Below, piece by piece: positions 12,459 through 62,803 of a DNA stretch of 64,000 nt; within the stretch, counting starts at the first letter, position 1; each line of letters starts with the position of its first letter. Location of the stretch: IMG/VR virus record IMGVR_UViG_3300042914_002334, positions 77,003-141,002 of that record; one strand, written 5' to 3'. The position numbers and the translations under genes are program-made. Below the pieces are notes generated by a model, which was not told the origin of the DNA, did no database searches, and saw nothing but the letters and a program-made list of their open reading frames with translations. This stretch comes from a virus.

Positions 12459-13916
12459 ATGCGTGATCAAATACTTGAAATTATTAATACTCATCCAAAA
12501 CACTATAGTTTATTGATTAAGAAAAACACAGCGTTACACAATTGGATAAAAGATAACTCGCAGATTGAGTGCGATCATTTTCCAACTATGATTTACAGTG
12601 CTGTATACGGAGTTAATCCAATATGTAGTAATAATAATCTAAAAAAGCTAACAAGATGGTCAACAGGGCTTGTTAACTGCGGAGCGGCAAATGTCTGTGC
12701 GTGTACTAAATCTGATATCTCTAAAAATGTAAGCGCAACTAAACAAAATTACAGTGAGCATCGCAAAACAGAAATAGAAGACAAAAGAAAAAGCACAATG
12801 CTTCTCAATTACGGGGTTGAATATAACAGTCAGCGTGAATCGGTAAAGACAATATTAAAAACATCAAAATTAAAAGAACATCAATTTAACACGTTGATTG
12901 ACCGTGATTGGTTAGAGCGTGAGTATGTAGTAAATAAACGTACTGCCGTTGATATTTCTAATGAAATAGGCTGTCACGATAGTGCGGTTAGACGATATGT
13001 AGCTCTACACGGATTTGATATTAGAAAATATAGTCAACGAAGTACATATGAATCAATGATTTGCCGTTGGCTAGACAATAACAATATACAGTATGAGATT
13101 TGTAATAGAACTATTCTGAATGGAGCAGAAATAGACATTTACATACCAGCACACAAGTTAGCTATTGAAGTTAACGGTCTTTTATATCACAGCTATAATC
13201 CAAATTCGTTTCATATTCTAAGACAAAAAAATAAAAAGGAAGAGCGAACAAGACACCTTAATAAAACTTTGTTAGCAAATGAAAAATCTGTTCATCTATT
13301 ACATCTAAATGATAATCAAATAAAAAATAAATGGGATGTTGTAACCAACATACTATCAAGTAAATTAAAACTACAGAATAAAATATGGGCCAGACAATGC
13401 GAAATTGTAGAAGTTAATTCTGCTGAGCAACGAGAATTTTTTAATCGTGTTCATATTCAAGGATGGGTAGCATCAAAAAAAGCATACGGGTTATATTATA
13501 ACAGCAGATTAGTTCAATGTATTAGCGTTGGAAATAATCGGTATCGTTCCAATGAGTTAGAGATTTTAAGATTCGCCAGTGAAATGAATACTACTGTAGT
13601 TGGCGGATTGAGTAGATTACTAAAACATATTCAATCAATATTCTCAGATATCACTATAACAACTTACTGTGATAGAGATATCAGTAACGGTAACGGGTAT
13701 ATCAGTGCTGGATTTAAAATTATTGAGTATACTAAACCTGGATATTTTTGGACTGATGGCACAGATATTATTAGTAGATACAAAACGCAAAAAACTCAAT
13801 TAAGTAAATGGTTGTCGCAATACAACTCTAATGAGAGTGAAAGTGTAAATATGTTTCGTGCTGGGTATCTGAGATATTGGAATACTGGTAATGTAGTATT
13901 ACGCTATGAGAAATAA
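12459..13916 (+). CDS. free-standing homing-endonuclease-like protein: PD-(D/E)xK nuclease plus GNAT/Mom-like C-terminal domain
   Basis: EIDIYIP..KLAIEVNG..YHS nuclease motif, YGVEY repeat, HTH, then ARQCEI..EILRFAS..GGLSRLL..TYCDRD; opposite strand inside head operon. Confidence 0.75.
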   Translation: MRDQILEIINTHPKHYSLLIKKNTALHNWIKDNSQIECDHFPTMIYSAVYGVNPICSNNNLKKLTRWSTGLVNCGAANVCACTKSDISKNVSATKQNYSEHRKTEIEDKRKSTMLLNYGVEYNSQRESVKTILKTSKLKEHQFNTLIDRDWLEREYVVNKRTAVDISNEIGCHDSAVRRYVALHGFDIRKYSQRSTYESMICRWLDNNNIQYEICNRTILNGAEIDIYIPAHKLAIEVNGLLYHSYNPNSFHILRQKNKKEERTRHLNKTLLANEKSVHLLHLNDNQIKNKWDVVTNILSSKLKLQNKIWARQCEIVEVNSAEQREFFNRVHIQGWVASKKAYGLYYNSRLVQCISVGNNRYRSNELEILRFASEMNTTVVGGLSRLLKHIQSIFSDITITTYCDRDISNGNGYISAGFKIIEYTKPGYFWTDGTDIISRYKTQKTQLSKWLSQYNSNESESVNMFRAGYLRYWNTGNVVLRYEK

Positions 13917-49700: not shown

Positions 49701-52005
49701 AAATTATGTTGAGTATGCTAATAAAATTCTTGCTCAGTATCCAATTACTGAGACAAGAACCAACTTAAGTTTGCTGAAAGATAATGGAATCGGATACGAT
49801 GTTAGAAATTATTGGACCTATATCAATTGGTGGGCGGCTGGGTATAGCAACGAAATCAAAGCAGCAGTAGAAGTAAATACTTTTGTTGATTTGCTGAGTA
49901 TAGGCGACAAGCAACTAATAACTGGATCCAATGGATTAGTGCTAACTCTTAGTGATGGTCTAATAGTAAAAGTAAAGTTGAACAGTTCCGGACTTAGCGA
50001 GTATTACATATATGATAATCTTTCTTGGACCAGAATAGGTTTAGAGCGTGGAACCATTCAGATATCGGACGATATATATATCAAAAACTGCCCGAAAGAA
50101 ACAAGAAATGTAATTCGTTGGATAGTAGAACAACTTTACACTCAAGAATTGCGAACATATCGCAACTCAAGTTTAATGTTGATGTTCAACTACATTATTA
50201 GCGAAACCAATAACAAGAACAACTACAATCAGTGGTTAGTAAAAACAAGTTTGGTTGATGTTAAACACAAAATTAGAAGTCTGCTGCAATATAGCAAGTA
50301 TCAAAGAGAAAATAAAGAATTCTTGTTTGGATACTTCAATGAAGTTAAGCCTTATCATGTATATGTTAAAGACTTTATATACAGTTATGATGGCTCTGAG
50401 GTTCTTCCTTTGCATGTCACGGACTTTGATTTGCCAGCAAAATACAATTTTGACAAACTAAAGTTTATTAGTCCTAAGTTAAAAACTACAAAATTAGAAA
50501 TGGCGTCGGATGAATCAAGATATGAATCATCAAGTGATGTTTGGAAATCTCCAGAATATAGTAGTTGGTATCAAAATTTTGGCTTAAGTCTAAGTAGCGG
50601 AGTAAAATCTCCCGTTGCAATTGCTATCACACAAGACTACATAGAAAAAGTAGATCAAGTAATTTCTATATCTAATTTTAGTGGACTTCACGATGGCGAT
50701 GTAGTGATAATCGATGACGAACAAATATATGTTGGCAAAGTCGATAGATATAATGGAGTTTTAACTGATTTAATTCGCGGATACAATAGCACTGTGATTG
50801 CTCGTCATGAGATTAAATCAATCGTCTATATCCCATCTTCAAATATAATTATGATAAATCGTGGTAGAGGATATAGCACTGACACTATTGCAACAATAGA
50901 TTTTGATACTACTAAGTATCTGTCTCCAAGACAAGAGATTATATTGACTCCACAAATTGCCAATGGAGAAATGAATAGTATTGCAATAAATAATCCAGGT
51001 AGTGGATATGTCGCTGCTCCAAATATAACATTGAGTAGTAGCACTATCTCTGTAGAATTCTCTGGCGAGAACATAAGACTGAACAATGTCATCAATAAAC
51101 CAAATCACAAACTAAAAACTGGTGACTCAGTCGTTTATACAATCGATGATGAACTTACTGATTATGGTCTAAAAAATAATGAATATTATTATGTTTTCAA
51201 AATAGACGATAATAATTTTGCATTATACCGTTCTAACTCGCATATTCAACGATCAGAGTTTTATCAAAGAAATAGTGCAGACAAACGCAGAGTTAAATTG
51301 AATATAATCGAATCTACTGTTATAGCAGTGCTGACTATAGCCGCTCGGGTTCAATACATTTATCAAAGTTACCCGATCAGAACTATTAAAACTAAAATTA
51401 AATTTGATAGAACTGGATACACGACCAATCACGGTTGGGATGCTGATAATTGGGACACCGTTGTTTGGGACTTTGAAGATAAAAATAATGCATTGATTCG
51501 TATATTTGATTACTATAACCCAAGTTCAAACATGACTGGAATTATTCCAGAAGCATTGATGACTGGACTCACCAATCCGTCTGTTGTCAAAGGTCCGGAA
51601 TTAAAACTTACCTCTGATGAAGCATTAGATAAGGCAGACAGTCTTATCACTAACGAAGGATTCACTAATAGTGCCACCGATTTTATCATAAACGGCGGTA
51701 AATTCTCAGATGGATATTCTCCAGAAGAATTGGTCGCTGGATATTTAACAGACAGAATAACCATCACGGTAAAAGACGAATCAAATTGGAAATTCACTAT
51801 CGAAATAAATGACAGTGGAAAAATGACGGTTCTGTCCAATAGCGGAGTTAAACTTAAGAAGCAATACTTGAATTACTGGTGGTATAACAATGTCAATTAC
51901 ACTATCGGTCAAAAACCTCCAGAAGATATGCAAATATTAGATTTAAGTCTGAATGAAATAGCAGATGCACATCCAACCAGTATTGCAAACTTCTTGCGAT
52001 CATGA
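40705..52005 (+). CDS. giant 3766-aa baseplate wedge / fibre-platform protein (gp7-like position)
   Basis: follows gp6; EVKPYHV motif, FG-GAP-like propeller segments, CBM-like WEPGVKYPKGQIV, WD-x-x-WD motifs, NPGSGY..AP repeats. Confidence 0.7.
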   Translation: MNTKIRTVDFLPEIFRTDSNSQFLSATLDVLVNQSDLARVQGYIGTDYGYGIKSSDKYVVEPTKSRTDYQLDPSVIFLKKDTQSAIDFINYPSMLRALDNKGAKVDNANRLFSNEFYSWDPFIDYDKIVNYSQYYWLPFGPDSIPIVNRTLIAGTYNLRSIDSAFQFTIRPDENPSLGLVRGNTYTFVLESDDPEEKFYIQGVPGLSAFQGTTDTRLLYIDEISYETLPNGKKSVTFTVPSSDIQNDYIVSGNLTVDLVSTLTVADIDGRNVSEIYSIDEITDINEKTLLFYNGDNEDSFYTINVNNGVISLTKDLTSIPLNTKITINSGVEFAGQQFFRNSDEQITQVPYLYSIQDVLYYQSSKNSKRFGSLHIYDSNVTTEINIDDILDKKTYVSPNGIKFTNGLKVKFDDSVIPNSYANKEYYVEGVGDAIKLLPTLKFRVTELSSEIIYNLWDDIPWDMNNWDSDLYESIKPDYITINRHSRDYNAWTRSNRWFHQSVIDTTINALGYLSARKNNVMTRALRPIIEFRGNLQLLNGGKYSLGFITYIDTTITSVEQFVIDNTKMIDGFQLLAGDRVVFANATNRDNRKNVYVVSYNSDSDDRQIFLNPDASYQVTEETEIHVKYGNNAKRGTTWRWIESTEQWVQLQRKITVNQPPLFDIVNDNDISFANTNHYPNTNFAGTKLFSYTPGVGAADQVLGFPLAYSSLNNIADINFTVNYNGDVFSFTNQDQAITLNINSGYVKHNLLDGTFELLTGWVSAAGDSYQKQVFKFEMNAGDSMMKINLSPIQNTVWEPFQIYIEDRLLDSFEYTYTVTNNVTTVVLVEPLRTSGVVTVAIYSNSTDPNSYYIIPTNLSSNPFNDNIVNIDLGDIRNQYKTIYSNTPGISGVPYGINNIHDLGKINQYGTSIVQNSASLVLPGIFLRKPDINFFDALQFNSDEYYNYKTLLVEIANKNDYSIEQTPQQILDNIIYEITTIKNKSNTFFWTDMLYSGSPYVTNTYKFNTAPEDNVLQLSKMYDFTSANYSGLGVYLTRTASGSKTTRQLIRDIDYVISDTDPAIRILVNILAGDSITIYEYNQTYGSYCPSTPTKLGLYPAYVPTIYHDEIAGPNVYYIVGHDGSYNKLYGTYENNKLNDFRDIALLEFETRIYNNLKINSDSPLTADDVFPGQFRKTEYAYEEINDMHATNFLNWVGSSRVDFKKQYYRVNNRFSYNYNQSSNKLSGGSIKQGNWRGIYRWLYDTDRPHTHPWELLGLTIKPQWWDSRYGPAPYTSDNSYMWKEIADGYVWNNGQPYVDSKKVRSKLLSILPVDSSGKLVSPFVTIVGNYNQLTFNNNWNVGDCGPAESAYLHSSSWPFDLMKILALTKPAKFFNLMVDRDRYVYDDNFKQYLYDKKYHLDCRKLELYGNGQAKHSYINWVIDYVNVKGLIGHDVVTDYIRNIDVRLTYNLGGFSSKEYLKFYIERATPNSKNTSFLIPDESYTVLLYDNIPEETIQYSSVIFQKVKDGWTVWGNNQSKNYFTTLIPREMGQYSNIEFDNRVIRVSKSWYDKTQIVTYGTVFYSIQAVADFINNYGQYLTKQGVVFDTQYNNVELNWELMIREFMAWAYQDWEVGSTIALNPNSRKFTINREGVIVQPMTVNNNNYILNQNLIPIQNENSTIYRNEKEFTVRVTNAGDTIGFTSLQLNSVEHAVVFDNVSIFNDVIYNLKTELRQPRLLLKGYKTNNWSGYLDARGFILNENNVKQWEPGVKYPKGQIVLNKNLYWSATKLIEPQQTFNSIEWKQIDYERVKTGLLRNPSTDAYESTLYYDSNRSNLKLDENLLAFSLIGYRPRDYLSSADLSDITQINVFKNIVTEKGTLQVANAFKNVKFDQGSIDYTIRENWAINTGTFGNILSSNFVEFKLDQNALNGNPTLIGFSDNVAIDDAHQTVKITDIINYERPPVSSNFLPQLDTSDPTLEYLPSAGYVDMRDADYAVYEFDNLNEDRTIIDNVKVGDTIWIAKYKHTWQIYTVVGLQSQCVEVTNNKNGTIIASFNEPHGLTVNQHFTIGDFNNSVDGFYTVKEIKSNNSVIAYGSLDSSIVKLSGLGISTKLVSLRHSQPSDVINTNIQYSEFRTKNAWVDNDKDNHWAVYSSSPVFVEKSLTGYVAPNTIVSTVEYNDQLGVIYAAPAENKVFYYKNDVVKNITISSELDIQFGKILAVASDKLFVGSLNKIYYYKLNTSTNELEAIQILNTQAIDLAASVDGIWLYVAKSSRMIDVYHLNRNTNSYVKVDSVQCPNDITSVVTSVDGSKVLCASSTATISNIDNVGQVFVFNRIRERYVADGVSREFNTHYFVPSNTADVYDNGVLISSNNVIVNESTITLRNIPNAGKNITVEYGKLVLSQTINSPTIGIGARFGQTIDVNRYGATFIVGSPYEIIRKNTNNNSSITEGAVYVYTNSGQRYAHIKLINPVVGENGVIFINGYKVLFPESGTNNLNVISQLINNSTPTNVVATVVDNTIEIGLRESTDSVPYNNIDLVGDLTVLTSLNYAPYSNTQKITSPNSDQSSRFGFSISMNERDSIVIGAPTASMIDYTTFDVTKNCQNDNTTFDNDITTFIDITLRTGMAYAYEYLPAHNESIENPGQYAFGQYIKPTIGHSGYSTKSNFAIVVKHGNNTIVSGSQNWINSRGSVFLFNSSTESADPCHVIKSTTWYVNKKPINSVDINKINNISIYSTSESNFVEYLDYIDPLRGKLFGALSTNIDIVSEQDPAGYDSVSLAWSSDRVGTIWLNPTNLRLMNYQQPDAQYNSRYWGVAFSGSSADIYTWIESDVIPLNYSGTGFPMTYDKYATASVMNDATNSLTTKYYFWVKNYSEVPKNKTLSPIALEQYLLNPQSSGISYLAPISTNMIALYNSEEYIRNYDSIMHLGYGNSTYDDNKHYSWKLISTESDDNLTGIPDANNLKPSGLYLKYIDSFAGIDSNNLSVPDTRLPEILRYGVGYNPRQSMFIDRRQALKNYVEYANKILAQYPITETRTNLSLLKDNGIGYDVRNYWTYINWWAAGYSNEIKAAVEVNTFVDLLSIGDKQLITGSNGLVLTLSDGLIVKVKLNSSGLSEYYIYDNLSWTRIGLERGTIQISDDIYIKNCPKETRNVIRWIVEQLYTQELRTYRNSSLMLMFNYIISETNNKNNYNQWLVKTSLVDVKHKIRSLLQYSKYQRENKEFLFGYFNEVKPYHVYVKDFIYSYDGSEVLPLHVTDFDLPAKYNFDKLKFISPKLKTTKLEMASDESRYESSSDVWKSPEYSSWYQNFGLSLSSGVKSPVAIAITQDYIEKVDQVISISNFSGLHDGDVVIIDDEQIYVGKVDRYNGVLTDLIRGYNSTVIARHEIKSIVYIPSSNIIMINRGRGYSTDTIATIDFDTTKYLSPRQEIILTPQIANGEMNSIAINNPGSGYVAAPNITLSSSTISVEFSGENIRLNNVINKPNHKLKTGDSVVYTIDDELTDYGLKNNEYYYVFKIDDNNFALYRSNSHIQRSEFYQRNSADKRRVKLNIIESTVIAVLTIAARVQYIYQSYPIRTIKTKIKFDRTGYTTNHGWDADNWDTVVWDFEDKNNALIRIFDYYNPSSNMTGIIPEALMTGLTNPSVVKGPELKLTSDEALDKADSLITNEGFTNSATDFIINGGKFSDGYSPEELVAGYLTDRITITVKDESNWKFTIEINDSGKMTVLSNSGVKLKKQYLNYWWYNNVNYTIGQKPPEDMQILDLSLNEIADAHPTSIANFLRS

Positions 52006-52856: not shown

Positions 52857-53678
52857 ATGGCATATACGATTCAATATTTTGGTGGTAACATTATCATTCA
52901 AGATGGAAACATAGATTCAACAACGAGTATAGTATTACCTGGAAGAAACTATGCAGGGTATGGAAGATATGTAAATCAAGACTTGGTAGATATGCTGCAA
53001 AACTTTGCAAGAAGCACCAGTGGACCAGGAAAACCAATAATCGGTCAATTGTGGTATAAAGCAATAGAAGAAGTAGCAACTACTGGACCAGCACCAGTCT
53101 CTATACTCAAAAATAAGTTCTTACATGTATATACGGCCGATCCTTATACATCTGATTCCAGACCAGTTTGGAAAGCACTTGCGTTTGAGGGCGGACTGAT
53201 AAACAAACTTGATGCAGGTGGCGCCGCCGCCCCCGGAACTATAACTGGTAACTGGACGCTTACCGCAGGTTCAAGATTGCAAGCAACATATGCTGACTTG
53301 GCTGAAAGATTCGAAGCAGATTGCGAGTATGATCCAGGAACCGTAGTAGAACTTGGTGGAAAAAAAGAAATCACCGCTGTTAAAGACGAATGCAGCGAAG
53401 AAGTGTTTGGTGTAGTAAGCACTACAGCGGCTTACTTGATGAATTCCGCCGCGGGAGACGATACTACGCATCCAGCGATTGCTATTGCTGGTAGAGTTCC
53501 AGTAAAAGTCAGCGGCAAAATTAAAAAGGGCGACCGATTAGTGTCTGCTGGCAAAGGTAGAGCAAGATCAGCGAAAAAAGGAGAAGCCACTCCTTTTAAC
53601 ACTATAGGTAGATCGTTAGAAGACAAAACAACGGATTCTGATGGATTTGTATTGGCAACTGTAACTGCAAAAATGTAA
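52857..53678 (+). CDS. short tail-fibre-like protein with C-terminal intramolecular chaperone (Peptidase G2-like autocleavage) domain
   Basis: GRNYAGYG..MLQNFA N-terminus; YADLAERF..PGTVV..GVVST..AGRVPVKV.G.IKKGDRLVS. Confidence 0.75.
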   Translation: MAYTIQYFGGNIIIQDGNIDSTTSIVLPGRNYAGYGRYVNQDLVDMLQNFARSTSGPGKPIIGQLWYKAIEEVATTGPAPVSILKNKFLHVYTADPYTSDSRPVWKALAFEGGLINKLDAGGAAAPGTITGNWTLTAGSRLQATYADLAERFEADCEYDPGTVVELGGKKEITAVKDECSEEVFGVVSTTAAYLMNSAAGDDTTHPAIAIAGRVPVKVSGKIKKGDRLVSAGKGRARSAKKGEATPFNTIGRSLEDKTTDSDGFVLATVTAKM

Positions 53679-53680
53679 TT

Positions 53681-56600
53681 ATGGCCTACTCAGTCAATCA
53701 AAAAGTTGAAGCCGTCGATTATAATACACTTTTTGTTAAACATGTAAATCGAGCATGGAGTAGTGGGGATACAAACGATCAATCTTATACATACAGATCG
53801 GATCAGGGATATGGTCAACCAAAACTAACCAATGTGCAGGCTGGAATAGATTTAATACGCGCACGTTCAGCATTTCCGGTAGTAGGAAATCCAAATGAAG
53901 ACATTGATCCTACATGGAATACTGACCCAACTCCTCCAGAGTGGAGAACTCTTGTAAATGTAATAAATCAGATGAGTTTGCATCAAACTGGAATCTCAGC
54001 AATAAGTCCGGGAAGTTTTATAGCGGCTAACAGTTTACCTATATCAACTACTTCTCCTACTGGATTAGTTGCTTGGTCTAATCAATTACAAACTGCTATA
54101 GATACCATTCTTAGTAATCAACGATTAAATTCACATGTTCGTGGAGTTCCTTCTCCCTCAACGGAGATAATAAACACAGTCGGAACTTGGTCAGATCGTG
54201 CAGTATTTACTATAAATGTGAATTTTGATAGTTTAGAGCGCGCAAGATACTTTTTCAATGCTGGAGGTCAAATACGATTTGAGTTCAGTCACTCAGCGTC
54301 AAATAATATCAATACTCTGTTGTCAACGGTTGCGACAGAGGCCGGACAAGTATATTTTAGTAGCACGAATGAATTTCCTATATCAATAGCGGGTGAAACT
54401 TATAACGCCGTTACCAAAACCGGCGGAGGAACACAAAATAGTAGCACTACTATAAATAATGGAGTTCCAGGATATCATCAACTTACCGGGTCGTTGGTGG
54501 AATTATTTAAGCAAACTGGGAGTTTGCAGACTGTTCCAAATGATTCGACTTTCATAACATTGTCAGCCTCGCGTAACGGTGCGGGTATGTTGACATTTGT
54601 AGTAGTTTTTGCTGAAAGTCCCACTGACTATATTATGAACAGTGGGTCTAAAGTTTCTGTCACAATAATGAATCCCAGTACTAATAGAATTGTAAATACC
54701 TGGGGAATTCCAGAAATTACATCTACGGTCGAGTTATTTCAAGCATCATTATGTATTACTCCAACGGTCGGACAAGCAACATCGACCAATATTCAAGCAG
54801 CAGTTCCTTTTAATTCAAGTATCACAGTCGTTAATGCGACATCATTGACTCTTATTGGTTCTTTTCCCAGTGGAATATCAGCGACTTTTCAAAAAGTCGG
54901 TAACGACATCGTAGTAAATATATCTGGAACTACTTTCGCGAGTTTGTTATTCTATGATATTAAAATAAATGCGACTAATGACACGGTAGGATGTTTGCCA
55001 TCAAATGTTATCAATCAACCAACTGGACTAACTGGAAATGTTATCGCTTCTCCAGTATGCACATCTCCGGTAATTGGTCAAGTTACTCCTACGGTAATTA
55101 AACCTGGAGTTCCATACAACGGAACTATATCAGTCACTAATGCAACATCAGCGTCGATTTCTAATTTACCACCGGGTCTATCACATATAGGAACTACATC
55201 TAATGGCACTGGTTTAACTTTAAATATTGCAGGAACTCCAACAGTTGCAGCAAGTAATAATTCTTACACTATAACAGTTAGCGCAACAAATAATTGCGGG
55301 GGAGGATATACAACAAGTTCCACCACATCTACTGCTGGAACATTCACATCACAAGCGGCTGATAATTGTCCTACTCCAGTAGTCGGACAGTTGATAGAAG
55401 CAACGCCTCCAGCACCGCCACCACCGCCCCCACCACCTCCTGCTGCAACATATTCACTGACAGCAGATAAAACATCGGTGAATGAGGGTGAATCAGTTCT
55501 TATTTCTCTCGCTGCAACAAATGTAAGCAATAGTGATTTAATTGGCTATACAATTAGCGGCGTTTCTTCTTCTGATATTTCAGATCAGCCGTTGGGTGGG
55601 TCATTTTTGCCTGGTTTACTAATGTCCAGACTGATTACCGTTAGTCAAGATAATTTGTCAGAAGGAGTCGAAGTCATGACTTTTGCGTTAAGTAACGGGC
55701 AAGCGTCAGTTCAAGTATCAATAAATGATACATCAACAGTTGGATGTGACTTGATAATCAACGAGTCATCAAGTCCATCTCCTACGGCAGATGTTATGTT
55801 TACTCTTCAGCACAGTGGAGAGTTTGGATTAGTATATTGGAAGGTAGTTTCTTTATCTGGAACTGTAAATGCGTCAGATTTTTCAGCAAGCACCTTTCCA
55901 ATGTCTGGTTCGGCTTCAATAGGAAATTTCGCGCCTGGCGAAGGAGGCGGAGGAGGCACTGGTCATGGAATTATACTTATAGCAGTAAACGAACTGTCAT
56001 CCGAGGGCGTCGAAAAGTTTACCATAAACATGTATTCTGATCCATATTATAACAATTTGATATGTTCTGGCCCGACTATATGTATAGTTGATGGTTCTAC
56101 CTCGGTACCTTCAAATCAACCTCCAAAAACAACTAATCAAGGCGCATATTCTATTGTCGCTGATGTAAATCAGCCAATAGAAAACTGGACTCCAGTTGCT
56201 CCGGGACCAGCCCCAAATCCTGCCCCGCAACCCTCTGTCGGCGAAAATTATAGTATAACAGCAGATAAAACTACGATTAACGAAACAGTAAATAGACAAG
56301 TTGCATTTACACTTAGTGTATCAAGCACTGGTCAGCATGTCGTTTATTGGAGAATAGAGACAATTTCTGGAAATATTTCATCAGCAGATTTTACGTCAGC
56401 GTTTTCTGGAAGTGCATATATAGGAGATACGGGACCTGGAGAGGGCGGAAACGCCAACATGGCAGAGAGTATATTAGTAATCACCGCACAAGATATGATT
56501 CTGGAAGGAGTTGAATCATTTACTATAAAAATGTATTCTAACTCTAATTATACCGGATTGCTTGCAACAGGGCCCACTGTTACTATTGGAGACACTTCTA

Positions 56601-56695
56601 CGGCCCCCGCTCCCGCTCCAGCACCTGCTCCAGCACCTGCTCCTCCGAATGGTGGAGGCGACGAATCTAATAATTTTGAGTTTAACTGGCTATAA
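53681..56695 (+). CDS. fibre protein: N-terminal virion-attachment domain, two Ig-like repeats, poly-Pro, three Calx-beta-like repeats
   Basis: ARYFFNAGGQIRF domain; C.TP.VGQ..NATS..PxG..ATN repeats; TADKTSVNEG..D...EGVE repeats. Confidence 0.7.
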   Translation: MAYSVNQKVEAVDYNTLFVKHVNRAWSSGDTNDQSYTYRSDQGYGQPKLTNVQAGIDLIRARSAFPVVGNPNEDIDPTWNTDPTPPEWRTLVNVINQMSLHQTGISAISPGSFIAANSLPISTTSPTGLVAWSNQLQTAIDTILSNQRLNSHVRGVPSPSTEIINTVGTWSDRAVFTINVNFDSLERARYFFNAGGQIRFEFSHSASNNINTLLSTVATEAGQVYFSSTNEFPISIAGETYNAVTKTGGGTQNSSTTINNGVPGYHQLTGSLVELFKQTGSLQTVPNDSTFITLSASRNGAGMLTFVVVFAESPTDYIMNSGSKVSVTIMNPSTNRIVNTWGIPEITSTVELFQASLCITPTVGQATSTNIQAAVPFNSSITVVNATSLTLIGSFPSGISATFQKVGNDIVVNISGTTFASLLFYDIKINATNDTVGCLPSNVINQPTGLTGNVIASPVCTSPVIGQVTPTVIKPGVPYNGTISVTNATSASISNLPPGLSHIGTTSNGTGLTLNIAGTPTVAASNNSYTITVSATNNCGGGYTTSSTTSTAGTFTSQAADNCPTPVVGQLIEATPPAPPPPPPPPPAATYSLTADKTSVNEGESVLISLAATNVSNSDLIGYTISGVSSSDISDQPLGGSFLPGLLMSRLITVSQDNLSEGVEVMTFALSNGQASVQVSINDTSTVGCDLIINESSSPSPTADVMFTLQHSGEFGLVYWKVVSLSGTVNASDFSASTFPMSGSASIGNFAPGEGGGGGTGHGIILIAVNELSSEGVEKFTINMYSDPYYNNLICSGPTICIVDGSTSVPSNQPPKTTNQGAYSIVADVNQPIENWTPVAPGPAPNPAPQPSVGENYSITADKTTINETVNRQVAFTLSVSSTGQHVVYWRIETISGNISSADFTSAFSGSAYIGDTGPGEGGNANMAESILVITAQDMILEGVESFTIKMYSNSNYTGLLATGPTVTIGDTSTAPAPAPAPAPAPAPPNGGGDESNNFEFNWL

Positions 56696-56718
56696 CACCC
56701 GTGTAAGGAACACAACAA

Positions 56719-57927
56719 ATGTCATTTACCGCTAATCAGTCATATTCTGCTTACATACCATTATCTAATGCAACAAGCGCGACGATTGGCGGTAGTGTTC
56801 CATCGGGTATATCGGCAACAGTAGACATTCCAGGACAAAAAGTTGTAATTAGTGGAATCCCAACTGTTCCAGGGCAGGTGTTTAACTTTACGATTACTGC
56901 AACAAACGATTGTAATCCAAATTACTCTACATCTACTACAGCAGTTGGAACTTATGCTGGTTTTGTTATAACGCCCCCATCGCCACCCCCTCCGCCATTG
57001 CCGCCGGGATGTATTATATTTAACAGTTTATATCCGCCTGCTGGACAACCAGAAGTATATAAAATGTCCAATGGAAATTGGACAGCATTTTTGAATACTT
57101 ATGGAGTGTGGGAAAGCAATACATATGTTGCTTCTTTTGACAGAATCTATACCTTTTATGTTCCTATATCTGAGACTTATAAAATAATATGTAGTTGCGA
57201 TAATATCGGATATGTCTATATTGACGGTGGATTAGTTCTTACTGCACCCGGTTTTGGGGCCGATTACTCAGTGAACATAGCACTGAGCGTTGGAAATCAT
57301 ACAATTAGAACATATGGAGTAAATAGCGGTGGCCCAGGAAGTATGGCAACAGTAGTCACCAGACAATCAAATACAGGATGTTCTGCATATCCATCATTTT
57401 CTTCTCCGCCCGACGATAGTGGACCTACTGTTCCCGATGCTGGCGGCACGGACTTCTTTTCTGGAGGAGGTTATGAAGCACCTGAAGGTGGAGGTGGAGG
57501 TGGAGGAGGAAAAGTAATTTGCACAGAATTATATCATATGGGTATGATGTCCAGTGATATATTTAAGTTAGATCAGGAATACGGCCAGTGGTTGGTTCAG
57601 AACGATCCTAAGACTTATTGGGGATATAGAGCATGGGCAGATATTTTAATAGACCTCATGCGCGGTGATCGTGGGCCCTACATTCCAAAATTATTTTTCT
57701 GGATGTCAGATAAACGACAGCGAGAAATCAGTCGTTCGTGGGCTCTGACCGTGGCTAATTTCTTGGGACAACCTTTTGCAGAAGAATTGGCCTATAGAGT
57801 AAATTCTAAGAAAGGTAGACGCACGTGGTTAGGATATGCGTTAGTTCAGTATGGTCAACCTATATGTTCTTTAATAGGAACATTTTCCAATAAATATAGA
57901 AAAAAGAAAAAACAAAATGTTATTTAA
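56719..57927 (+). CDS. fibre tip paralogue A: N-truncated Ig domain, poly-Pro, PA14-like lectin domain, poly-Gly, KVICT-type C-terminal domain
   Basis: CSCDN.GYVYIDG..GNHTIR beta-sandwich; GGGGGGGGKVICTELY; AAGGA SD. Confidence 0.7.
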   Translation: MSFTANQSYSAYIPLSNATSATIGGSVPSGISATVDIPGQKVVISGIPTVPGQVFNFTITATNDCNPNYSTSTTAVGTYAGFVITPPSPPPPPLPPGCIIFNSLYPPAGQPEVYKMSNGNWTAFLNTYGVWESNTYVASFDRIYTFYVPISETYKIICSCDNIGYVYIDGGLVLTAPGFGADYSVNIALSVGNHTIRTYGVNSGGPGSMATVVTRQSNTGCSAYPSFSSPPDDSGPTVPDAGGTDFFSGGGYEAPEGGGGGGGGKVICTELYHMGMMSSDIFKLDQEYGQWLVQNDPKTYWGYRAWADILIDLMRGDRGPYIPKLFFWMSDKRQREISRSWALTVANFLGQPFAEELAYRVNSKKGRRTWLGYALVQYGQPICSLIGTFSNKYRKKKKQNVI

Positions 57928-57952
57928 TAAAGTTGAATTATATTTCTTATAA
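57917..57952 (+). pseudogene. truncated copy of the 59507 small gene (MLFNKVELYFL*)
   Basis: matches MLFNTTEADFL at the equivalent position after the paralogous fibre gene; stop lies at the palindrome centre. Confidence 0.5.
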
Positions 57953-57964
57953 GAAATATAATTC
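57935..57964. repeat. perfect 30-bp palindrome
   Basis: GAATTATATTTCTTA|TAAGAAATATAATTC with no spacer. Confidence 0.95.
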
Positions 57965-57995
57965 TCTGTGACTTAATGAAAAAGTTTGAAATAAA

Positions 57996-59462
57996 ATGCC
58001 AATTACAGTAAATCAGCAATATGACGCCTACATACCGCTAACTAATGTGACCGATGCCACATTGAGTGGAACGGTTCCAACTGGACTATCGGTCAATATA
58101 GACATTTCAGGACAGCGAGTTACAATTAGTGGAGTTCCAACGATTACTGGACAGGCGTATAACTTTACTATATCAGCGACAAATTCTTGCAAGCCAAATT
58201 TTTCTAATACTACCACAGGAGCGGGAACCTTTTCTGGGTTTGTGGTAAATCCACCTCCACCTCCTCCTCCACCTCCACCTCCTCCCCCAACACAGTGTAT
58301 AGCGTTTAACAGTTTATATCCACCTGACGGACAGCCTACTGTATACAAGAAATCCCATGGAAATTATACTGCATTTCTGAACACATATGGTGTGTGGGAG
58401 GCAGTATATGTTGGAAGTTTTGACAGAACTTATACTTTCAATGCGCCTGTATCAGGCACATACACAGTTCTGTGCAGTTGCGATAATTTTGGTTTTGTAT
58501 ATATCAATGGGATTGAAGTTCTTCAGGCGCCCGACTTTGTCGCTGATTATTCAACGACTGTTTATCTCGATGCTGGAAATCATACCGTAAGAACATATGG
58601 AGTAAATTACCACGGAGAAGCGAGTATGGCAACAGTAATTACCTTGCCACAAAATTCTGGATGTGTTGGATTTCCAGGAACGACCCCGCCACCCGCCGCC
58701 TTTGATAGTCCAAATGGTGAATTTACTGGAATCAATGCCGGAGACGGTGGAGGGTACGACGCCACGCCCGATGGCGGCGGTGGGGGCGGAGAATGCTTCA
58801 AGATTGGAACCCTAATATCTATGGCCGACGGCTCATTTAAGAGAATAGAAGACATTTTAGTTGATGATATGGTGTTGTCAGCAGATGGAAAACGAATAAA
58901 CAAAGTCAGATATGTCGAGCATTCTTCTATTCTCGGAACTGCATATAAAACTTTCTATGCCCCAAAGGGAATCACTCCTTTTGCCACTGAAAATCATCCA
59001 ATAGTAGTAAATAAAAAATGGGTAAGTTCTAACGCCGAACTTTCTCAAAAGCTGTATCCTTGGATTGAAACTACTCAGTTGGAAGAATTTGATACTGAGC
59101 CCACTAACAATCAGATCGTTTGGAACATTTGGGTTGATGGGGATCACACTTATCAAGTCAATGGATTTGGAACAAACAGTCTTGTAGATGACGGCGGATG
59201 GCTAAGAATATCAGTCGAACAGGGATACATGACAAAAGATCAAATAACAGAAGTCACTCATGCAGTGTCTAATTCCAGTTCTGCGGTGGCATATGGAGCA
59301 CTTATACTAAGTAATTTGGTGGCAACAATCAATCTTCCCTTACTAACAAAATATGTTGCAGATATGATGTTAGGCAAAAAGTCTAAGGTTCCTATGAACA
59401 TTGCAATAATCACAGTCGGCTCTTTGGCGATGTATCTTAAAAAAATCAAAAATATTTTTTGA
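57996..59462 (+). CDS. fibre tip paralogue B: N-truncated Ig domain, poly-Pro, PA14-like domain, poly-Gly, Hint domain and hydrophobic tail
   Basis: paralogous to 56719 up to the poly-Gly; CFKIGTLISMADG (block A), ATENHP (block B), HTYQVNGFGTNS (C-terminal block). Confidence 0.8.
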   Translation: MPITVNQQYDAYIPLTNVTDATLSGTVPTGLSVNIDISGQRVTISGVPTITGQAYNFTISATNSCKPNFSNTTTGAGTFSGFVVNPPPPPPPPPPPPPTQCIAFNSLYPPDGQPTVYKKSHGNYTAFLNTYGVWEAVYVGSFDRTYTFNAPVSGTYTVLCSCDNFGFVYINGIEVLQAPDFVADYSTTVYLDAGNHTVRTYGVNYHGEASMATVITLPQNSGCVGFPGTTPPPAAFDSPNGEFTGINAGDGGGYDATPDGGGGGGECFKIGTLISMADGSFKRIEDILVDDMVLSADGKRINKVRYVEHSSILGTAYKTFYAPKGITPFATENHPIVVNKKWVSSNAELSQKLYPWIETTQLEEFDTEPTNNQIVWNIWVDGDHTYQVNGFGTNSLVDDGGWLRISVEQGYMTKDQITEVTHAVSNSSSAVAYGALILSNLVATINLPLLTKYVADMMLGKKSKVPMNIAIITVGSLAMYLKKIKNIF

Positions 59463-59506
59463 CATTATGTCACGATTAAATAAACTTAGTTGAAAAGGAA
59501 AAATAT

Positions 59507-59704
59507 ATGTTATTCAATACTACCGAAGCCGATTTCTTAAACAGAATGTCACTAATGTCTGACGATGGCAAGAAAAAGTTATACGATGGAATCAGTTTAG
59601 AAGCAGCAGAAATTATAGCCGCATTGTTTAATAAACATCCTGCTATCACTAACTTTTTGGCCAAAAAAAGAGAAGAAGCAGCAGCCTCACAACAAAATCA
59701 ATAA
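59507..59704 (+). CDS. small hypothetical protein, possible fibre assembly chaperone
   Basis: 65 aa, AAGGA SD, directly after fibre tip gene. Confidence 0.6.
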   Translation: MLFNTTEADFLNRMSLMSDDGKKKLYDGISLEAAEIIAALFNKHPAITNFLAKKREEAAASQQNQ

Positions 59705-59741: not shown

Positions 59742-61085
59742 ATGCAATTTACACCTATGAAATATCTGATAACTGCCAATTTCAACATAACCGCTCAAGA
59801 TGTCGAGAAATACTTCGCGTCTAATAATATAAACATATTGGAGCAATTCTCAAATCTAAAAAATACTTACTTGATTGAGACTTCGATAGATTCCTTTGAT
59901 AACAACATAGTAGAATACTACGAAGAAGATTCTGAATTGATTATGGCTCAACTTGGAACAAATTGTACAGAAATAACTGATGATGAGAGTAATTGGTGGA
60001 GGTTATCATCTCTCAACATCAATGACTTTAACAAACAAACCTACGCTCACTGTAAAAATTCTATACCAGTCAATGTCTACTTATTTGATGACGGCATCTC
60101 CGATCATATAGAATTCAACAATATCAGCGTAGAACGCTTGTATTCTTATGATGACAATTTTGATGATTCTACTGGGCACGGAACGCATGTGGCGTCACTT
60201 ATAGCAGGAAATACACTTAGTTTATCAAGAGTAAATCTTAAAGTAGTAAAAATATTTGGCCCTAAACCTACTATACTATCAGATTTGATAAAAGCATTAA
60301 ATGCGGTAGTAGGACATCATGAAAGTTTGAACACTACTTCAATATGTAATTTTAGTTTTTCAATCAAATCTGATTTCTTTGTAAATCAATTAAGAAGTCT
60401 GATGAATTCGGGACTAATAATAGTATCGGCTGCTGCGGAAGAGAATGATTTGGCAAAAGTCGAATCTTCTTACTATGTCGGCGCTTACGATAAAGACTTT
60501 AGACCGATGATTCAAGAGTCAATGCTAAGTTCAGTGAATACATATGCGCCAGGAGATAGTGTTCTCGCCGCAATAAATTCTAACGATTATGTAATGATGT
60601 CTGGCACATCGGTAAGTGCTGCTATACATACCTCTTGTCTTGCCTATGCAATTGGAAGTTATTACTCTAACAAGATTCCAAAATTGTCTAATGACGAATT
60701 TAATAATATCGCAAGACGAATAGCACTTACCGATACGAGTATGATTGACTTCGACGAGTTGTCAAAACCATCTGACTGTTCGATGAGCATGATAAAGTCT
60801 CAATCGTATAATGCCACTGATTTGGTGTTAGTCGATGACATTATAACAACTAACAAACAACATATAAATATCAAGTGCTTGATTACCAATCGTGTAAGCA
60901 ACATGTCTTACTCTGACCTACCAAATGGTTTGAGTATCATTGATGGGTGGATAACTGGAACCGTAGACGTTGATATAGATCACGGCGTTTCTCAAAGAAC
61001 ATATTATTCAATGATTCAATTTGAGTTATTGCATGAAAATGCAATAAATGCATTCACTCTTCCAATAACAATTTTTAAGGAATAA
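59742..61085 (+). CDS. subtilisin-like (S8) serine protease with prodomain and C-terminal Ig-like domain
   Basis: catalytic triad FDDG, GHGTHVAS, SGTS; late promoter TGTAAATA 6 nt upstream. Confidence 0.85.
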   Translation: MQFTPMKYLITANFNITAQDVEKYFASNNINILEQFSNLKNTYLIETSIDSFDNNIVEYYEEDSELIMAQLGTNCTEITDDESNWWRLSSLNINDFNKQTYAHCKNSIPVNVYLFDDGISDHIEFNNISVERLYSYDDNFDDSTGHGTHVASLIAGNTLSLSRVNLKVVKIFGPKPTILSDLIKALNAVVGHHESLNTTSICNFSFSIKSDFFVNQLRSLMNSGLIIVSAAAEENDLAKVESSYYVGAYDKDFRPMIQESMLSSVNTYAPGDSVLAAINSNDYVMMSGTSVSAAIHTSCLAYAIGSYYSNKIPKLSNDEFNNIARRIALTDTSMIDFDELSKPSDCSMSMIKSQSYNATDLVLVDDIITTNKQHINIKCLITNRVSNMSYSDLPNGLSIIDGWITGTVDVDIDHGVSQRTYYSMIQFELLHENAINAFTLPITIFKE

Positions 61086-61087
61086 TT

Positions 61088-61354
61088 ATGAGTTTCTTGA
61101 ACAAGTTAAAACAACGAAAACAGGAAGTAGAAAACAAAATCTACACAGTAGCCACAACCGTGGTAGATACCGTCAAAGAGCATGTAATACAGCCTGTAAT
61201 CCAATTGGATGAAAGTGCTGTAGAGCGTAGATTGGAAATATGCAGATCATGTGATTACTATATTAAAGATAGTAGTCGCTGTAGTTTGTGTGGATGCTTT
61301 ATGAACTTTAAAACCAGACTCACTCAATCAAGTTGTCCAATTGGAAAATGGTAA
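61088..61354 (+). CDS. small Cys-rich (metal-binding) protein
   Basis: RLEICRSC..RCSLCGCFM..K....SCPIGKW. Confidence 0.75.
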   Translation: MSFLNKLKQRKQEVENKIYTVATTVVDTVKEHVIQPVIQLDESAVERRLEICRSCDYYIKDSSRCSLCGCFMNFKTRLTQSSCPIGKW

Positions 61355-61405
61355 TTTGCTCAAAACGATTGACTCGAACATCGCGATTCTATTAGAATCA
61401 CGCAT

Positions 61406-61597
61406 ATGAGCGAACAAATAGAACAACCAATTTTTGATTTTAGTGCTCTGCCCCCAAAAAAGAAAAAGAATGTAGTAGATGATGTCAGAAACATTCTGAT
61501 AGTCGAGTTTTCGGGTGATAAGCAGGGTGAACAGCAAGCAAAACAACTATTTGAGGAATTGCGTGAGCGCGGTTTTAAATTAAAGATAATGACATGA
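61406..61597 (+). CDS. small partner protein of ABC-GNAT module
   Basis: LIVEF...EQQAKQLFEELRERGFKLKIM, a small alpha/beta domain directly upstream of the ATPase. Confidence 0.6.
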   Translation: MSEQIEQPIFDFSALPPKKKKNVVDDVRNILIVEFSGDKQGEQQAKQLFEELRERGFKLKIMT

Positions 61598-61687
61598 ATA
61601 GAAAAACGCATAATGCAAAATCTGCGTATATTAAAGCCTATATAGAACGTCACTCTAAAAAGTGCAAATTAGCAAAAGAGATTAATA

Positions 61688-62803
61688 ATGCAAACATTTG
61701 AAGTAACTCTAAAAACGCAGGCTCCAACAAGTTTTTATTGTTTGCGAGCAGCCAATAGTGTAGATTTAGATATTGAAAAGAAATTAACACATCATTTAAA
61801 GGTTACTGTTGATTTAGAAACGCCCTACAATGTAGGACTTATAATAGGAAACAGCGGTTCTGGCAAGTCAACTCTGGCAAAAACTATATGGGGCAATGAA
61901 TGTTTTGATTCATTGTTAAATTATGAGTTACCGGTAATTGACCAATTTGATGATTCGTATTCCTACGATGAACGAGTGCATTTTTTATCTGGTGTCGGAT
62001 TGGGGTCTCCAGTAACATGGATTCAGCCTGCAAAAACACTATCTAATGGACAACAATCAAGAGCCGAAGTCGCTCTTCAAATGGCCAGAACTGATGGAAA
62101 ATTTACCGTCATTGATGAATTTACATCAGTTGTTGATAGAACCGTTGCAAAAGCAATGAGTCATTCTGTTCAAAAAGTTGTCAGAAAAAATCAAAAGAGA
62201 ATCGTTCTAATCAGTTGTCATTATGACATAGTAGATTGGTTAAATCCAGATTGGATAATTGATTGTAATACTCAAGATTACATTGACCGGAGGTTGAAAT
62301 GTCCAAGGTATTCCGGGCCCGAGCAGCTTATTTTCAGGGTTAGAGAACTTCGAGAAACAAAAAGTTGGGCCTCCTTTAGCAGATATCATTATCTCTCCGA
62401 CAAATTAGCGGGTGGAAAAAATTATCTATTCGGGCTATTTACTGAAGAGGAACAGCAAATTGGATTTATAGCCTATAGCAATTATGTTCTTCACAAACAA
62501 GAACATAAAGACAAGAATCTTCCTATGATTATGCATGCCAATAGAATCGTGGTACACCCAGATTATTGTGGATTTGGTCTTGGAGGTAAATTGACAGACA
62601 TTACTGCTGATTACATGAAACATGTTTTAAAATATGATGTTCAAATAAAACTAAGTAGTGCCAGTATGGCTAACTTACTCAAGAAAAATACTCGTTGGGA
62701 ATTACGCGATGTCAGTAGAAATGTCAACAATATTTGGGGCAATCACGTTGGCAGAACAGGCCGTATAGACGTTAAGACTTATAGTTTTAAGTTTTTAGAC
62801 TAA
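61688..62803 (+). CDS. soluble ABC-type ATPase fused to GNAT acetyltransferase
   Basis: GNSGSGKST, LSNGQ, VIDEF, SCH; then YHYLS and RIVVHPDYCGFGLG acetyl-CoA motif. Confidence 0.85.
   Translation: MQTFEVTLKTQAPTSFYCLRAANSVDLDIEKKLTHHLKVTVDLETPYNVGLIIGNSGSGKSTLAKTIWGNECFDSLLNYELPVIDQFDDSYSYDERVHFLSGVGLGSPVTWIQPAKTLSNGQQSRAEVALQMARTDGKFTVIDEFTSVVDRTVAKAMSHSVQKVVRKNQKRIVLISCHYDIVDWLNPDWIIDCNTQDYIDRRLKCPRYSGPEQLIFRVRELRETKSWASFSRYHYLSDKLAGGKNYLFGLFTEEEQQIGFIAYSNYVLHKQEHKDKNLPMIMHANRIVVHPDYCGFGLGGKLTDITADYMKHVLKYDVQIKLSSASMANLLKKNTRWELRDVSRNVNNIWGNHVGRTGRIDVKTYSFKFLD

What the first reader, a model, noticed from the sequence alone, without database searches (positions are those of the whole stretch)
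54752..59704. Possible plug-and-socket fibre system: orphan Ig strand in one protein, two alternative tip proteins missing that strand
Seen: the 1004-aa fibre has two full Ig-like repeats beginning C.(T/S)P.(V/I)GQ (54752, 55058), each with a later ATN..C. A third repeat starts CPTPVVGQL (55367-55393) and then breaks off into poly-Pro. Both downstream genes (56719, 57996) begin with the remainder of that same repeat (F/ITxNQxYxAYIPLxNxT..P.G...ATNxC) and lack the Cys-bearing first strand. Known: chaperone-usher pili link subunits by donor-strand complementation of incomplete Ig folds. Inference: tip A or tip B docks on the fibre in trans via the orphan strand, possibly locked by an inter-chain disulfide, giving interchangeable PA14-like receptor-binding tips. 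Alternative: an ancestral fusion split by insertion of the Calx-beta block.
Basis: partly seen in the sequence, partly recalled or inferred. Interest (0 to 1): 0.85.

Follow-up and report, generated by a model that had tools for sequence, protein, structure and literature searches.

The report
Split Ig domain joins fibre and tips
In an uncultured jumbo phage, the tail-fibre protein carries one spare beta-strand, and the two tip proteins encoded after it begin with an immunoglobulin-like domain that lacks exactly that strand. The tips therefore most likely plug onto the fibre by completing the domain. The same split recurs in several other phages, but it is predicted here, not shown by experiment.

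Summary
The 1004-aa fibre (53681-56695) has two intact Ig-like repeats, starting at C358 and C460. A third copy holds only the first 12 residues (C563-A574, 55367-55402) and then runs into poly-Pro. Tip A (56719) and tip B (57996) start, right after in-frame stops, with the rest of that domain.

The split is not unique. Four relatives of the fibre end exactly with the spare strand, and the next gene starts with the strand-less domain. In three the distance from the Cys to the conserved Tyr matches intact repeats once the initiator Met is removed; the two others differ by one residue. An unrelated phage has an 84-aa protein with two spare strands followed by two such genes.

A complex prediction puts fibre residues 560-575 against the B and F strands of tip A, with C563 touching tip C65. 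Score 0.75, best control 0.07 (mark reached by 58 of 80 solved complexes and 2 of 110 mismatched pairs).

The two Cys co-vary in intact repeats, and the strand-less domains keep their now unpaired Cys.

The 'PA14' and 'Calx-beta' labels are unconfirmed. A solved precedent of the same principle exists (Tuc2009 BppU-BppA, PMC4742702). This scan has also noted similar split-Ig joints in other phages.

The parts
53681..56695 (+). Fibre gene (P0001, 1004 aa)
   Evidence: ORF and translation. It is 42% identical over 586 aa to the fibre P0189 of a syntenic phage.
53681..54739 (+). N-terminal fibre domain (aa 1-353, motif RYFFNAGG). Many other phage fibres share it and carry other distal parts.
   Evidence: No Pfam family above threshold.
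54752..55057 (+). Intact Ig-like repeat R1 (C358 to V459). Cys pair C358/C438.
55058..55366 (+). Intact Ig-like repeat R2 (C460 to N562). Cys pair C460/C539.
   Evidence: AlphaFold2 model with 26-row alignment has mean pLDDT 95.2. Ig-like sandwich by Foldseek, TM about 0.6 to Siglec-like, ICAM and cadherin domains, none below E 0.001.
55367..55402 (+). Spare first strand ('plug'), C563-A574, CPTPVVGQLIEA
   Evidence: Partial profile hit. Aligned with the C-terminal plugs of relatives; Cys and Pro are invariant. It is the core of the predicted interface with tip A.
55403..55447 (+). Pro-rich linker (T575-A589) leading away from the plug
   Evidence: Its length varies in the close relative L001.
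55448..56692 (+). C-terminal extension of three related beta-rich blocks ('Calx-like' by pattern only) joined by Pro-rich linkers. Absent from the relatives whose fibre ends at the plug.
   Evidence: (L001 has one block fewer). No Pfam match.
56719..57927 (+). Tip A gene (P0002, 402 aa)
56719..56976 (+). Tip A 'socket': Ig-like domain without its first strand (aa 1-86). Unpaired C65 at 56911-56913.
   Evidence: Predicted to bind the plug.
57010..57393 (+). Tip A middle domain (about aa 98-225). 58% identical overall between the two tips. Possible PA14-like fold, weak lead only.
   Evidence: No Pfam match.
57520..57927 (+). Tip A C-terminal module, starting at C268 after poly-Gly (KVICTELY...)
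   Evidence: The module is found behind many different N-terminal parts.
57996..59462 (+). Tip B gene (P0003, 488 aa)
57996..58253 (+). Tip B 'socket': the same strand-less Ig-like domain. Unpaired C65 at 58188-58190.
   Evidence: Not itself tested in a complex.
58794..59462 (+). Tip B C-terminal Hint-like domain, starting at C267 after poly-Gly
   Evidence: Pfam Hom_end_hint E 2.4e-6, below the curated cut-off. A clear Hint match is seen in the relative P0191.

Best explanation
The fibre and its tips are joined by a split Ig-like domain.

The fibre ends its Ig-repeat stalk with one spare first strand (strand A, C563-A574). Each tip protein starts, after removal of its initiator Met, with strands A' to G of the same domain type.

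The spare strand lies antiparallel against the B strand of the tip domain and packs on its F strand, which completes the sandwich in trans. C563 comes next to tip C65. That is the position of the Cys pair of intact repeats, so a disulfide could lock the joint once the virion is outside the cell.

Tip A and tip B carry the same socket, so they compete for or share the same kind of site.

In this phage the fibre continues past the plug through a poly-Pro linker into extra domains, so the tip would sit as a side branch. In relatives the plug is the fibre's last 11-13 residues.

- **Shown:** the sequence anatomy, its recurrence, the Cys co-variation.
- **Predicted:** the interface.
- **Inferred:** the disulfide, the alternative occupancy, the receptor-binding role of the tips.
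For: **1. Anatomy.** Exact as described.

**2. Recurrence in the same fibre family.**
- L002, L004, L012 and L014 fibres end with the plug: ...CPSPTFGALTDN, ...CPAPTYGTVVEN, ...CANPVIAANIIEV, ...CSTPVSGAITI.
- In each, the next gene starts with the strand-less domain.
- L012 again has two such tips.
- All six known family members with Ig repeats carry an orphan plug after the last intact repeat.

**3. Complementary lengths.** In intact repeats the plug Cys is 19 residues before the conserved aromatic. Plug plus tip without Met gives 19 in the window, L002, L004 and L006. It gives one residue more than in intact repeats in L012 and L014 (sequences).

**4. Unrelated phages.**
- L006 has an 84-aa protein with two plugs, followed by two socket-first genes.
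- L018 and L020 have an orphan plug inside the gene upstream of a socket-first gene.

**5. Complex prediction.**
- ipSAE 0.75, best of 3 controls 0.07. The mark was reached by 58 of 80 solved complexes and 2 of 110 mismatched pairs.
- Runs agree in at least 91% of contacts. Partner pLDDT is at least 84.
- The interface is fibre 560-575 with tip A 9-18, 59-66 and 68-77. C563 contacts C65.

**6. Cys co-variation.** Of 206 internal repeats, 132 have both Cys, 0 have the first only, 25 the second only and 49 neither. Twelve of 14 N-terminal sockets keep the second Cys alone.

**7. Strand belongs to the following domain.** In the intact R2 model the first segment has pLDDT 94-96.
Against: - No experiment supports it, and no virion proteomics exists.
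- The complex score may simply reflect likeness to the intact repeats, which the model can complete from memory of the fold. My own alignments were used, so the calibration counts hold only roughly.
- Only tip A was tested.
- One plug for two tips in the 40%-complete record leaves the stoichiometry open.
- One socket-first protein (L022) has no plug in the 232 upstream residues available. Some proteins start with the intact domain (P0045, P0060, L016). The first strand may therefore be dispensable for folding.
- The Cys statistics are not corrected for shared ancestry.
- Cys-Cys distance in the intact model could not be measured.
- Disulfides do not form in the cytoplasm.
Confidence: 0.65

Rival explanations
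1. The strand-less N-terminal domain folds and works on its own, and the plug is only a linker remnant of a lost or transferred repeat. The tips attach to the virion by some other surface, or not to this fibre at all.
For: Socket-first proteins exist with no visible plug next to them (L022). Ig-like domains can often tolerate loss of an edge strand (general knowledge). In the control run without the fibre, the tip domain still had pLDDT 77.
Against: A useless C-terminal remnant would be lost quickly. Instead it is kept, with its Cys, Pro and hydrophobic pattern, in fibres only 42-57% identical. It is also kept in unrelated phages. The sockets keep the otherwise unpaired Cys. The lengths add up to within one residue.
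Confidence: 0.2
2. Fibre and tip are made as one chain by read-through, frameshift or ribosome hopping over the gene boundary, so the domain is complete in cis.
For: In L002, L012 and L006 the tip gene is in the same frame as the upstream gene, and the gaps are short at 18-42 nt. T4 gene 60 is a known hop in a related phage group (general knowledge).
Against: - In the window the plug lies 1.3 kb before the fibre's stop, so no recoding can join it to a tip.
- L004 and L014 are in other frames, and L014 overlaps by ATGA.
- The in-frame gaps hold one to two further stops, and read-through would add 6-14 residues to an otherwise exact spacing.
- L002 and L004 have a T4-late-promoter-like TATAAATA in the gap.
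- L012 has two tips for one plug.
Confidence: 0.03
3. The joint is real but not covalent. The paired Cys have another role, such as metal binding or stability of intact repeats, and the strand alone holds the tip.
For: Phage assembly takes place in a reducing cytoplasm. The solved precedent Tuc2009 BppU-BppA needs no covalent bond (PMC4742702).
Against: The strict co-occurrence of the two Cys, the retention of the unpaired Cys in sockets and plugs, and the predicted C563-C65 contact all fit a disulfide that forms after lysis.
Confidence: 0.3

Closest known systems
Lactococcus phage Tuc2009 baseplate joint BppU-BppA (crystal structure, mBio 2016, PMC4742702)
   Same: A C-terminal extension of the anchoring protein completes a beta-sheet of a small beta-sandwich domain of an accessory carbohydrate-binding protein. 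The composite resembles a titin Ig domain (read). It is a solved case of a phage adhesion protein attached by an Ig-like domain completed in trans.
   Different: [quoted passage not shown] Here a single first strand is donated to the N-terminal domain of the tip.
- No sequence relation was found (no PDB hit).
- That joint has no Cys pair.
- It is in a siphophage baseplate, not a myophage fibre.
- It was not described as a recurrent exchangeable standard.
Donor-strand complementation/exchange in chaperone-usher pili (Fim, Pap, Caf1); general knowledge
   Same: An incomplete Ig-like fold is completed by a strand from the neighbouring subunit, giving a very stable joint.
   Different: - Pilins lack the last (G) strand, and the donor is the N-terminal extension of the next subunit.
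- Assembly there is periplasmic, with a chaperone and an usher, and is repetitive.
- Here the first (A) strand is missing and the donor lies C-terminal to the preceding protein's repeats.
- The joint occurs once per fibre, and no chaperone or usher genes were seen.
Type V pili of Bacteroidia (FimA/Mfa1) and TasA fibres of Bacillus subtilis (Nat Commun 2022, PMC9674648)
   Same: Strand exchange between beta-sandwich subunits builds fibres outside the chaperone-usher system.
   Different: Those are homopolymers of one subunit type, primed by proteolysis in type V pili. Here the joint is heterotypic, between a fibre and alternative tips.
SpyTag/SpyCatcher-type split domains (engineered from CnaB2; general knowledge)
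   Same: A peptide strand and a strand-deficient Ig-like domain rebuild the fold and lock covalently.
   Different: That system is engineered, its lock is an isopeptide bond, and the fold family differs. Here the split is natural and the lock is a presumed disulfide.
Conserved N-terminal anchor domains of alternative receptor-binding proteins in branched phage fibres (e.g. CBA120, G7C, RaK2-like jumbo phages; general knowledge)
   Same: Several tips with different distal parts share an N-terminal adaptor for one docking site. The portal protein places this phage near Atu_ph07/121Q-like jumbo phages.
   Different: Known anchors are complete domains that dock surface to surface. No homologue of this fibre or these tips exists in 50,697 deposited phage records.

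Membership tests
Chaperone-usher donor-strand complementation | The acceptor Ig-like fold lacks its C-terminal G strand | tested here: not met
   The tips lack the N-terminal first strand and their G strand is present.
Chaperone-usher donor-strand complementation | The donor is an N-terminal extension of the next subunit | tested here: not met
   The donor follows the last repeat of the upstream protein. It is C-terminal in relatives and internal here.
Chaperone-usher donor-strand complementation | A dedicated periplasmic chaperone and an outer-membrane usher are encoded alongside | tested here: not met
   Pfam and PHROG scans of the neighbouring genes show phage structural and protease genes only.
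Trans-completed Ig-like joint of phage adhesion devices (Tuc2009 BppU-BppA type) | A short extension of the anchoring protein completes a beta-sheet of a sandwich domain of the attached protein | tested here: met
   Met by prediction only. The interface is fibre 560-575 with tip A strands B and F, score 0.75 against control 0.07. The precedent was read.
Trans-completed Ig-like joint of phage adhesion devices (Tuc2009 BppU-BppA type) | Sequence homology to BppU/BppA | tested here: not met
   A profile of the repeats finds no PDB chain at E up to 1.
He_PIG (PF05345) putative Ig domain | Match to the Pfam model above the gathering score | tested here: inconclusive
   There is no He_PIG hit for the window's proteins. 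Three of 26 related repeats match, best E 9.9e-6. The profile search also pulls in generic He_PIG-like arrays.
Ig-like beta-sandwich fold | Two-sheet sandwich of about seven strands | tested here: met
   The R2 model has pLDDT 95.2 and six long strands plus an extended first segment. The best Foldseek matches are Ig-like domains, TM 0.55-0.67, E about 0.01.
PA14 domain (PF07691) in the tips | Match to the Pfam model | tested here: inconclusive
   There is no Pfam match at E up to 1. The nearest Atlas cluster scores 0.92, with PA14 on 13% of its members.
Calx-beta domain in the fibre's C-terminal extension | Match to the Pfam model | tested here: not met
   There is no Calx-beta hit at E up to 1. 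The resemblance is by pattern only.
Hint domain (tip B C-terminus) | Match to Hint-clan models, with a Cys at the first position after the cleavage site | tested here: inconclusive
   Five Hint-clan families match below their cut-offs, best E 2.4e-6, all starting at C267 after GGGGGE. The relative P0191 matches Hint_2, Intein_splicing and PT-HINT in the same place.

The most novel reading that the evidence does not exclude
The Cys-bearing first strand and the strand-less Ig-like domain form a portable docking standard that locks covalently by a disulfide. Unrelated uncultured phages share it: jumbo T4-like fibres, and small phages with an 84-aa two-plug adaptor. It lets whole tip genes be swapped between genomes without touching the fibre gene. 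It also lets one fibre carry either of two tips, or be branched when the chain continues past the plug.
Probability: 0.35. Interest if true: 0.8.

Novelty: new variant of a known kind. Interest (0 to 1): 0.7.

Why it matters
- **Host-range evolution.** Tips could be exchanged as whole genes because the docking interface is a standard strand-and-socket pair.
- **Annotation rule.** An orphan Cys-x-[TS]-Pro strand upstream and a Met-Pro socket start downstream would identify which proteins sit on which fibre in uncultured jumbo phages.
- **Protein engineering.** It would be a natural split Ig-like pair, possibly locked by a disulfide. It is small (a 12-residue tag and an 86-residue catcher) and could be tried as a coupling tool.
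- **Known principle, wider use.** It would extend a principle known from one solved lactococcal phage baseplate, and from bacterial pili, to a different strand, polarity and fold family.

Tried and rejected
- **Alternative repeat register.** I tested whether 'C.TP.VGQ' is the end of the preceding repeat, with a disulfide from ATNxC to the next Cys. Rejected. In the R2 model the segment belongs confidently to its own following domain. In the complex it goes to the tip, not back to R2. In an Ig fold, the start of strand A and the F-G turn lie at the same end.
- **Insertion of the Calx-like block as the cause of the split.** Rejected.
- **Recoding across the gene boundary.** Rejected.
- **Single-sequence fold of fibre 340-610.** Too poor to use, pLDDT 50.
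- **Word-indexed homologue search with fibre region 340-600.** It found nothing, probably swamped by poly-Pro words.
- **Pattern scans of viral contigs and metagenome contigs with the tip alignment.** They gave only further copies of known loci or unrelated proteins.
- **Deposited phages.** No match for fibre, tips or their relatives, apart from the C-terminal module of tip A in one cyanophage.
- **Sequence search of PDB with the repeat profile.** No hit.
- **Literature searches.** Searches for donor-strand or strand complementation in phage tails found no description of this system.
- **P0058 as a possible fused form.** It turned out to carry an internal plug-like motif followed by another domain and a Hint domain. 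The DNA of its two downstream genes was not available.
Full report
**Context**

The window is the right-hand 64 kb of a 141-kb IMG/VR virus record estimated 40% complete. It carries UvsX-like recombinase, large terminase, portal, gp46-like nuclease and a gp6-like baseplate protein. The portal is 45-55% identical to those of Atu_ph07-, PAC2- and 121Q-like jumbo myophages.

The finding lies in the baseplate/fibre module. The gene order is: a 3766-aa protein, a 212-aa protein, a Peptidase_G2-like 273-aa protein, the 1004-aa fibre, tip A, tip B, an S8 subtilase-like protein, a small Cys-rich protein and an ABC/GNAT protein.

**The observation**

The fibre (P0001) has Cys at 358, 438, 460, 539, 563, 689, 795 and 801.

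- R1 (358-459) and R2 (460-562) are full repeats. Each has C-x-[TS]-P-x-[VI]-G-Q at the start and ATN..C near the end.
- The third copy is CPTPVVGQLIEA only, followed by a Pro-rich linker and 415 further residues.
- Tip A and tip B begin at ATGs that lie 4 and 2 codons after in-frame stops.
- The tips align with the repeats from the 17th column on. They lack only the Cys-bearing first segment and keep the late Cys, C65.
- In the whole record the strand motif occurs in a real gene only at the three sites named.

**What the domain is**

With an alignment of 26 repeats, AlphaFold2 gives R2 a mean pLDDT of 95.2, with 94-96 for the first 20 residues. Foldseek places it among Ig-like sandwiches (Siglec-like adhesin domains, ICAM, cadherin). 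TM is 0.55-0.67 and no match is below E 0.001.

Sequence searches find no solved relative. Pfam gives only sporadic He_PIG matches, in 3 of 26 repeats. An exhaustive profile search finds 265 representative proteins with this repeat, many as long tandem arrays.

**The split recurs**

Among the hits, a class of proteins starts at Met with the domain from profile position 15-17 on. Their genomic contexts are as follows.

| Locus | Relation to the window | Plug | Following gene(s) |
|---|---|---|---|
| L002 | syntenic | fibre ends ...CPSPTFGALTDN | starts with the strand-less domain (MPLTEGQSY...) |
| L004 | syntenic | fibre ends ...CPAPTYGTVVEN | starts with the strand-less domain (MPLTVGVSY...) |
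| L012 | syntenic | fibre ends ...CANPVIAANIIEV | two socket-first tips, one with LCCL and Hint domains |
| L014 | same fibre family | fibre ends ...CSTPVSGAITI | start overlaps the fibre's stop; begins with the strand-less domain |
| L001 | 90% identical to the window | internal plug, as in the window; one C-terminal block fewer | two tips |
| L006 | unrelated (holin, GH19 lysin) | 84-aa protein ends with two plugs (CPTPVINQAVDG, CPTPAVNPATP) | two socket-first proteins |
| L018 | unrelated | orphan plug inside the gene upstream | socket-first gene |
| L020 | S8 peptidase gene after the tip, as in the window | orphan plug inside the gene upstream | socket-first gene |
| L022 | not determined (1.6-kb contig) | none in the part of the upstream gene that the contig holds | socket-first gene |

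All six known fibres that combine the RYFFNAGG N-domain with these repeats have an orphan plug after the last intact repeat. Fibres with that N-domain but other distal parts have none.

**Exact complementarity**

In intact repeats the first Cys lies 19 residues before the conserved aromatic of the B strand. Adding the plug (12, 12, 12 and 11 residues in the window, L002, L004 and L006) to the tip's N-terminus without its Met gives 19 in each case. L012 and L014 give one residue more than in intact repeats. These counts come from the sequences.

The tips start Met-Pro or Met-Ser. Methionine aminopeptidase trims such starts (general knowledge). So the cut is a clean break between strand A and strand A', with nothing lost or gained.

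**Prediction of the joint**

I folded fibre 455-590 (with five relatives as alignment) together with tip A 1-95 (with ten relatives).

- The score (ipSAE) was 0.60, 0.76 and 0.75 in three runs, median 0.75. The best of three controls scored 0.07.
- The mark was reached by 58 of 80 solved complexes and 2 of 110 mismatched pairs in the tool's calibration. Those counts hold only roughly because I supplied my own alignments.
- The runs agree in at least 91% of contacts, and partner pLDDT is at least 84.
- The confident interface is fibre 560-575 with tip A 9-18 (B strand), 59-66 (F strand with C65) and 68-77.
- The pairing is antiparallel: 566 with 17/18, 568 with 15, 569 with 13/14. C563 touches N63, C65 and 71-73.

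This is the geometry expected for strand A of the intact domain. The pass may stem from the model's knowledge of the intact repeat. It shows that the pieces fit, not that they bind in the cell.

**The Cys pair**

I aligned 220 repeats from the representatives to the profile.

- Of 206 internal repeats, 132 have both Cys, none has the first alone, 25 have the second alone and 49 have neither. In several of the 25, an insertion moved the first Cys out of the aligned stretch. Fisher's test gives 4e-29, uncorrected for ancestry.
- Twelve of 14 N-terminal socket domains keep the second Cys with no partner in their own chain.
- The plug Cys is invariant in the fibre alignment.

In Ig folds the start of strand A and the F-G turn lie at the same end (general knowledge). 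An intradomain disulfide in intact repeats, and an interchain one at the joint, are therefore plausible. I could not measure distances, and the bond could form only after lysis.

**Rivals**

- **Recoding across the boundary** is excluded for the window, because the plug is 1.3 kb upstream of the fibre's stop. It is also unlikely elsewhere. Frames differ, further stops lie in the gaps, read-through would spoil the spacing, and L002 and L004 have TATAAATA (like a T4 late promoter) in the gap.
Relatives are split without any such block, so the block is an addition behind the plug.
- **A vestigial plug with a self-sufficient socket** remains possible, at about 0.2. It has to explain why plug, Cys and spacing are kept in fibres only 42-57% identical and in unrelated phages.

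**Comparison with what is known**

The principle, an Ig-like fold completed in trans, is that of chaperone-usher pili. The defining features of that system are not met: a different strand is missing, the polarity is opposite, and there is no chaperone or usher.

The nearest solved case in a phage is Tuc2009, where a C-terminal hairpin of BppU completes a sheet of the titin-like domain 2 of BppA (PMC4742702, read).

The scan has also reported split-Ig joints in other phages, with other Ig families and other cut points. Those notes are unchecked by me.

I found no paper describing this family or a first-strand plug with a paired Cys. No deposited phage carries it. I therefore rate it a new variant of a known kind.

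**Verdict**

Confidence is 0.65 that the plug completes the tip domain in trans, and lower, about 0.45, that a disulfide locks it.

Noticed in passing
57480-59462; also L001:1937-3430, L012:9664-11322: Both tips end in a module that starts with Cys directly after a poly-Gly run: KVICTELY... in tip A, and a Hint-like domain in tip B. A 90%-identical copy of tip A's N-part in L001 carries a Hint domain instead. The KVICTELY module sits behind many unrelated N-terminal parts. Several relatives end natively in poly-Gly. This suggests self-cleaving C-terminal modules that leave a poly-Gly end.
   Followed up: partly
59742-62803; L002:9378-12457; L004:9472-12572; L012:11328-14316; L020:1699-3126: In all syntenic relatives, an S8 subtilase-like gene, a small Cys-rich DUF6171-like gene, a 60-aa gene and an ABC-ATPase/GNAT fusion follow the tip genes in the same order. 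L020 holds the subtilase gene and a small gene after it.
   Followed up: no
L006:7728-7982: An 84-aa Cys-rich protein consists of a short N-terminal part and two consecutive spare strands. Two genes that start with the strand-less domain follow it directly. It could be a minimal two-plug adaptor.
   Followed up: partly
L002:7959-8000; L004:7960-8000: The gaps between fibre and tip genes hold TATAAATA, the T4 late-promoter word. The tips are probably transcribed on their own.
   Followed up: no
L020:611-739: Between the plug-bearing gene and the socket-first gene lies a short ORF that encodes only a fragment of the same Ig repeat (LSPTSATVGTAYSATIAVSNCT...). It looks like a decayed repeat.
   Followed up: no
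40705-52005; L002:1-2631: The giant protein upstream (3766 aa here, 4698 aa in L002) has no copy of the repeat in this phage. In L002 its tail holds several intact repeats of the same family, plus an LCCL-like stretch.
   Followed up: no
53681-54739: The fibre's N-terminal domain (RYFFNAGG motif) is shared by many metagenomic fibres. In those it is fused directly to other distal domains, including ones ending in the KVICTELY module. It is probably the part that anchors to the baseplate.
   Followed up: partly
12459-13916: An HNH homing-endonuclease-like gene lies on the opposite strand within the head/packaging gene block.
   Followed up: no
52857-53678: The 273-aa protein just before the fibre matches the autoproteolytic intramolecular-chaperone domain of Peptidase_G2. 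It is conserved at this place in all syntenic relatives.
   Followed up: no
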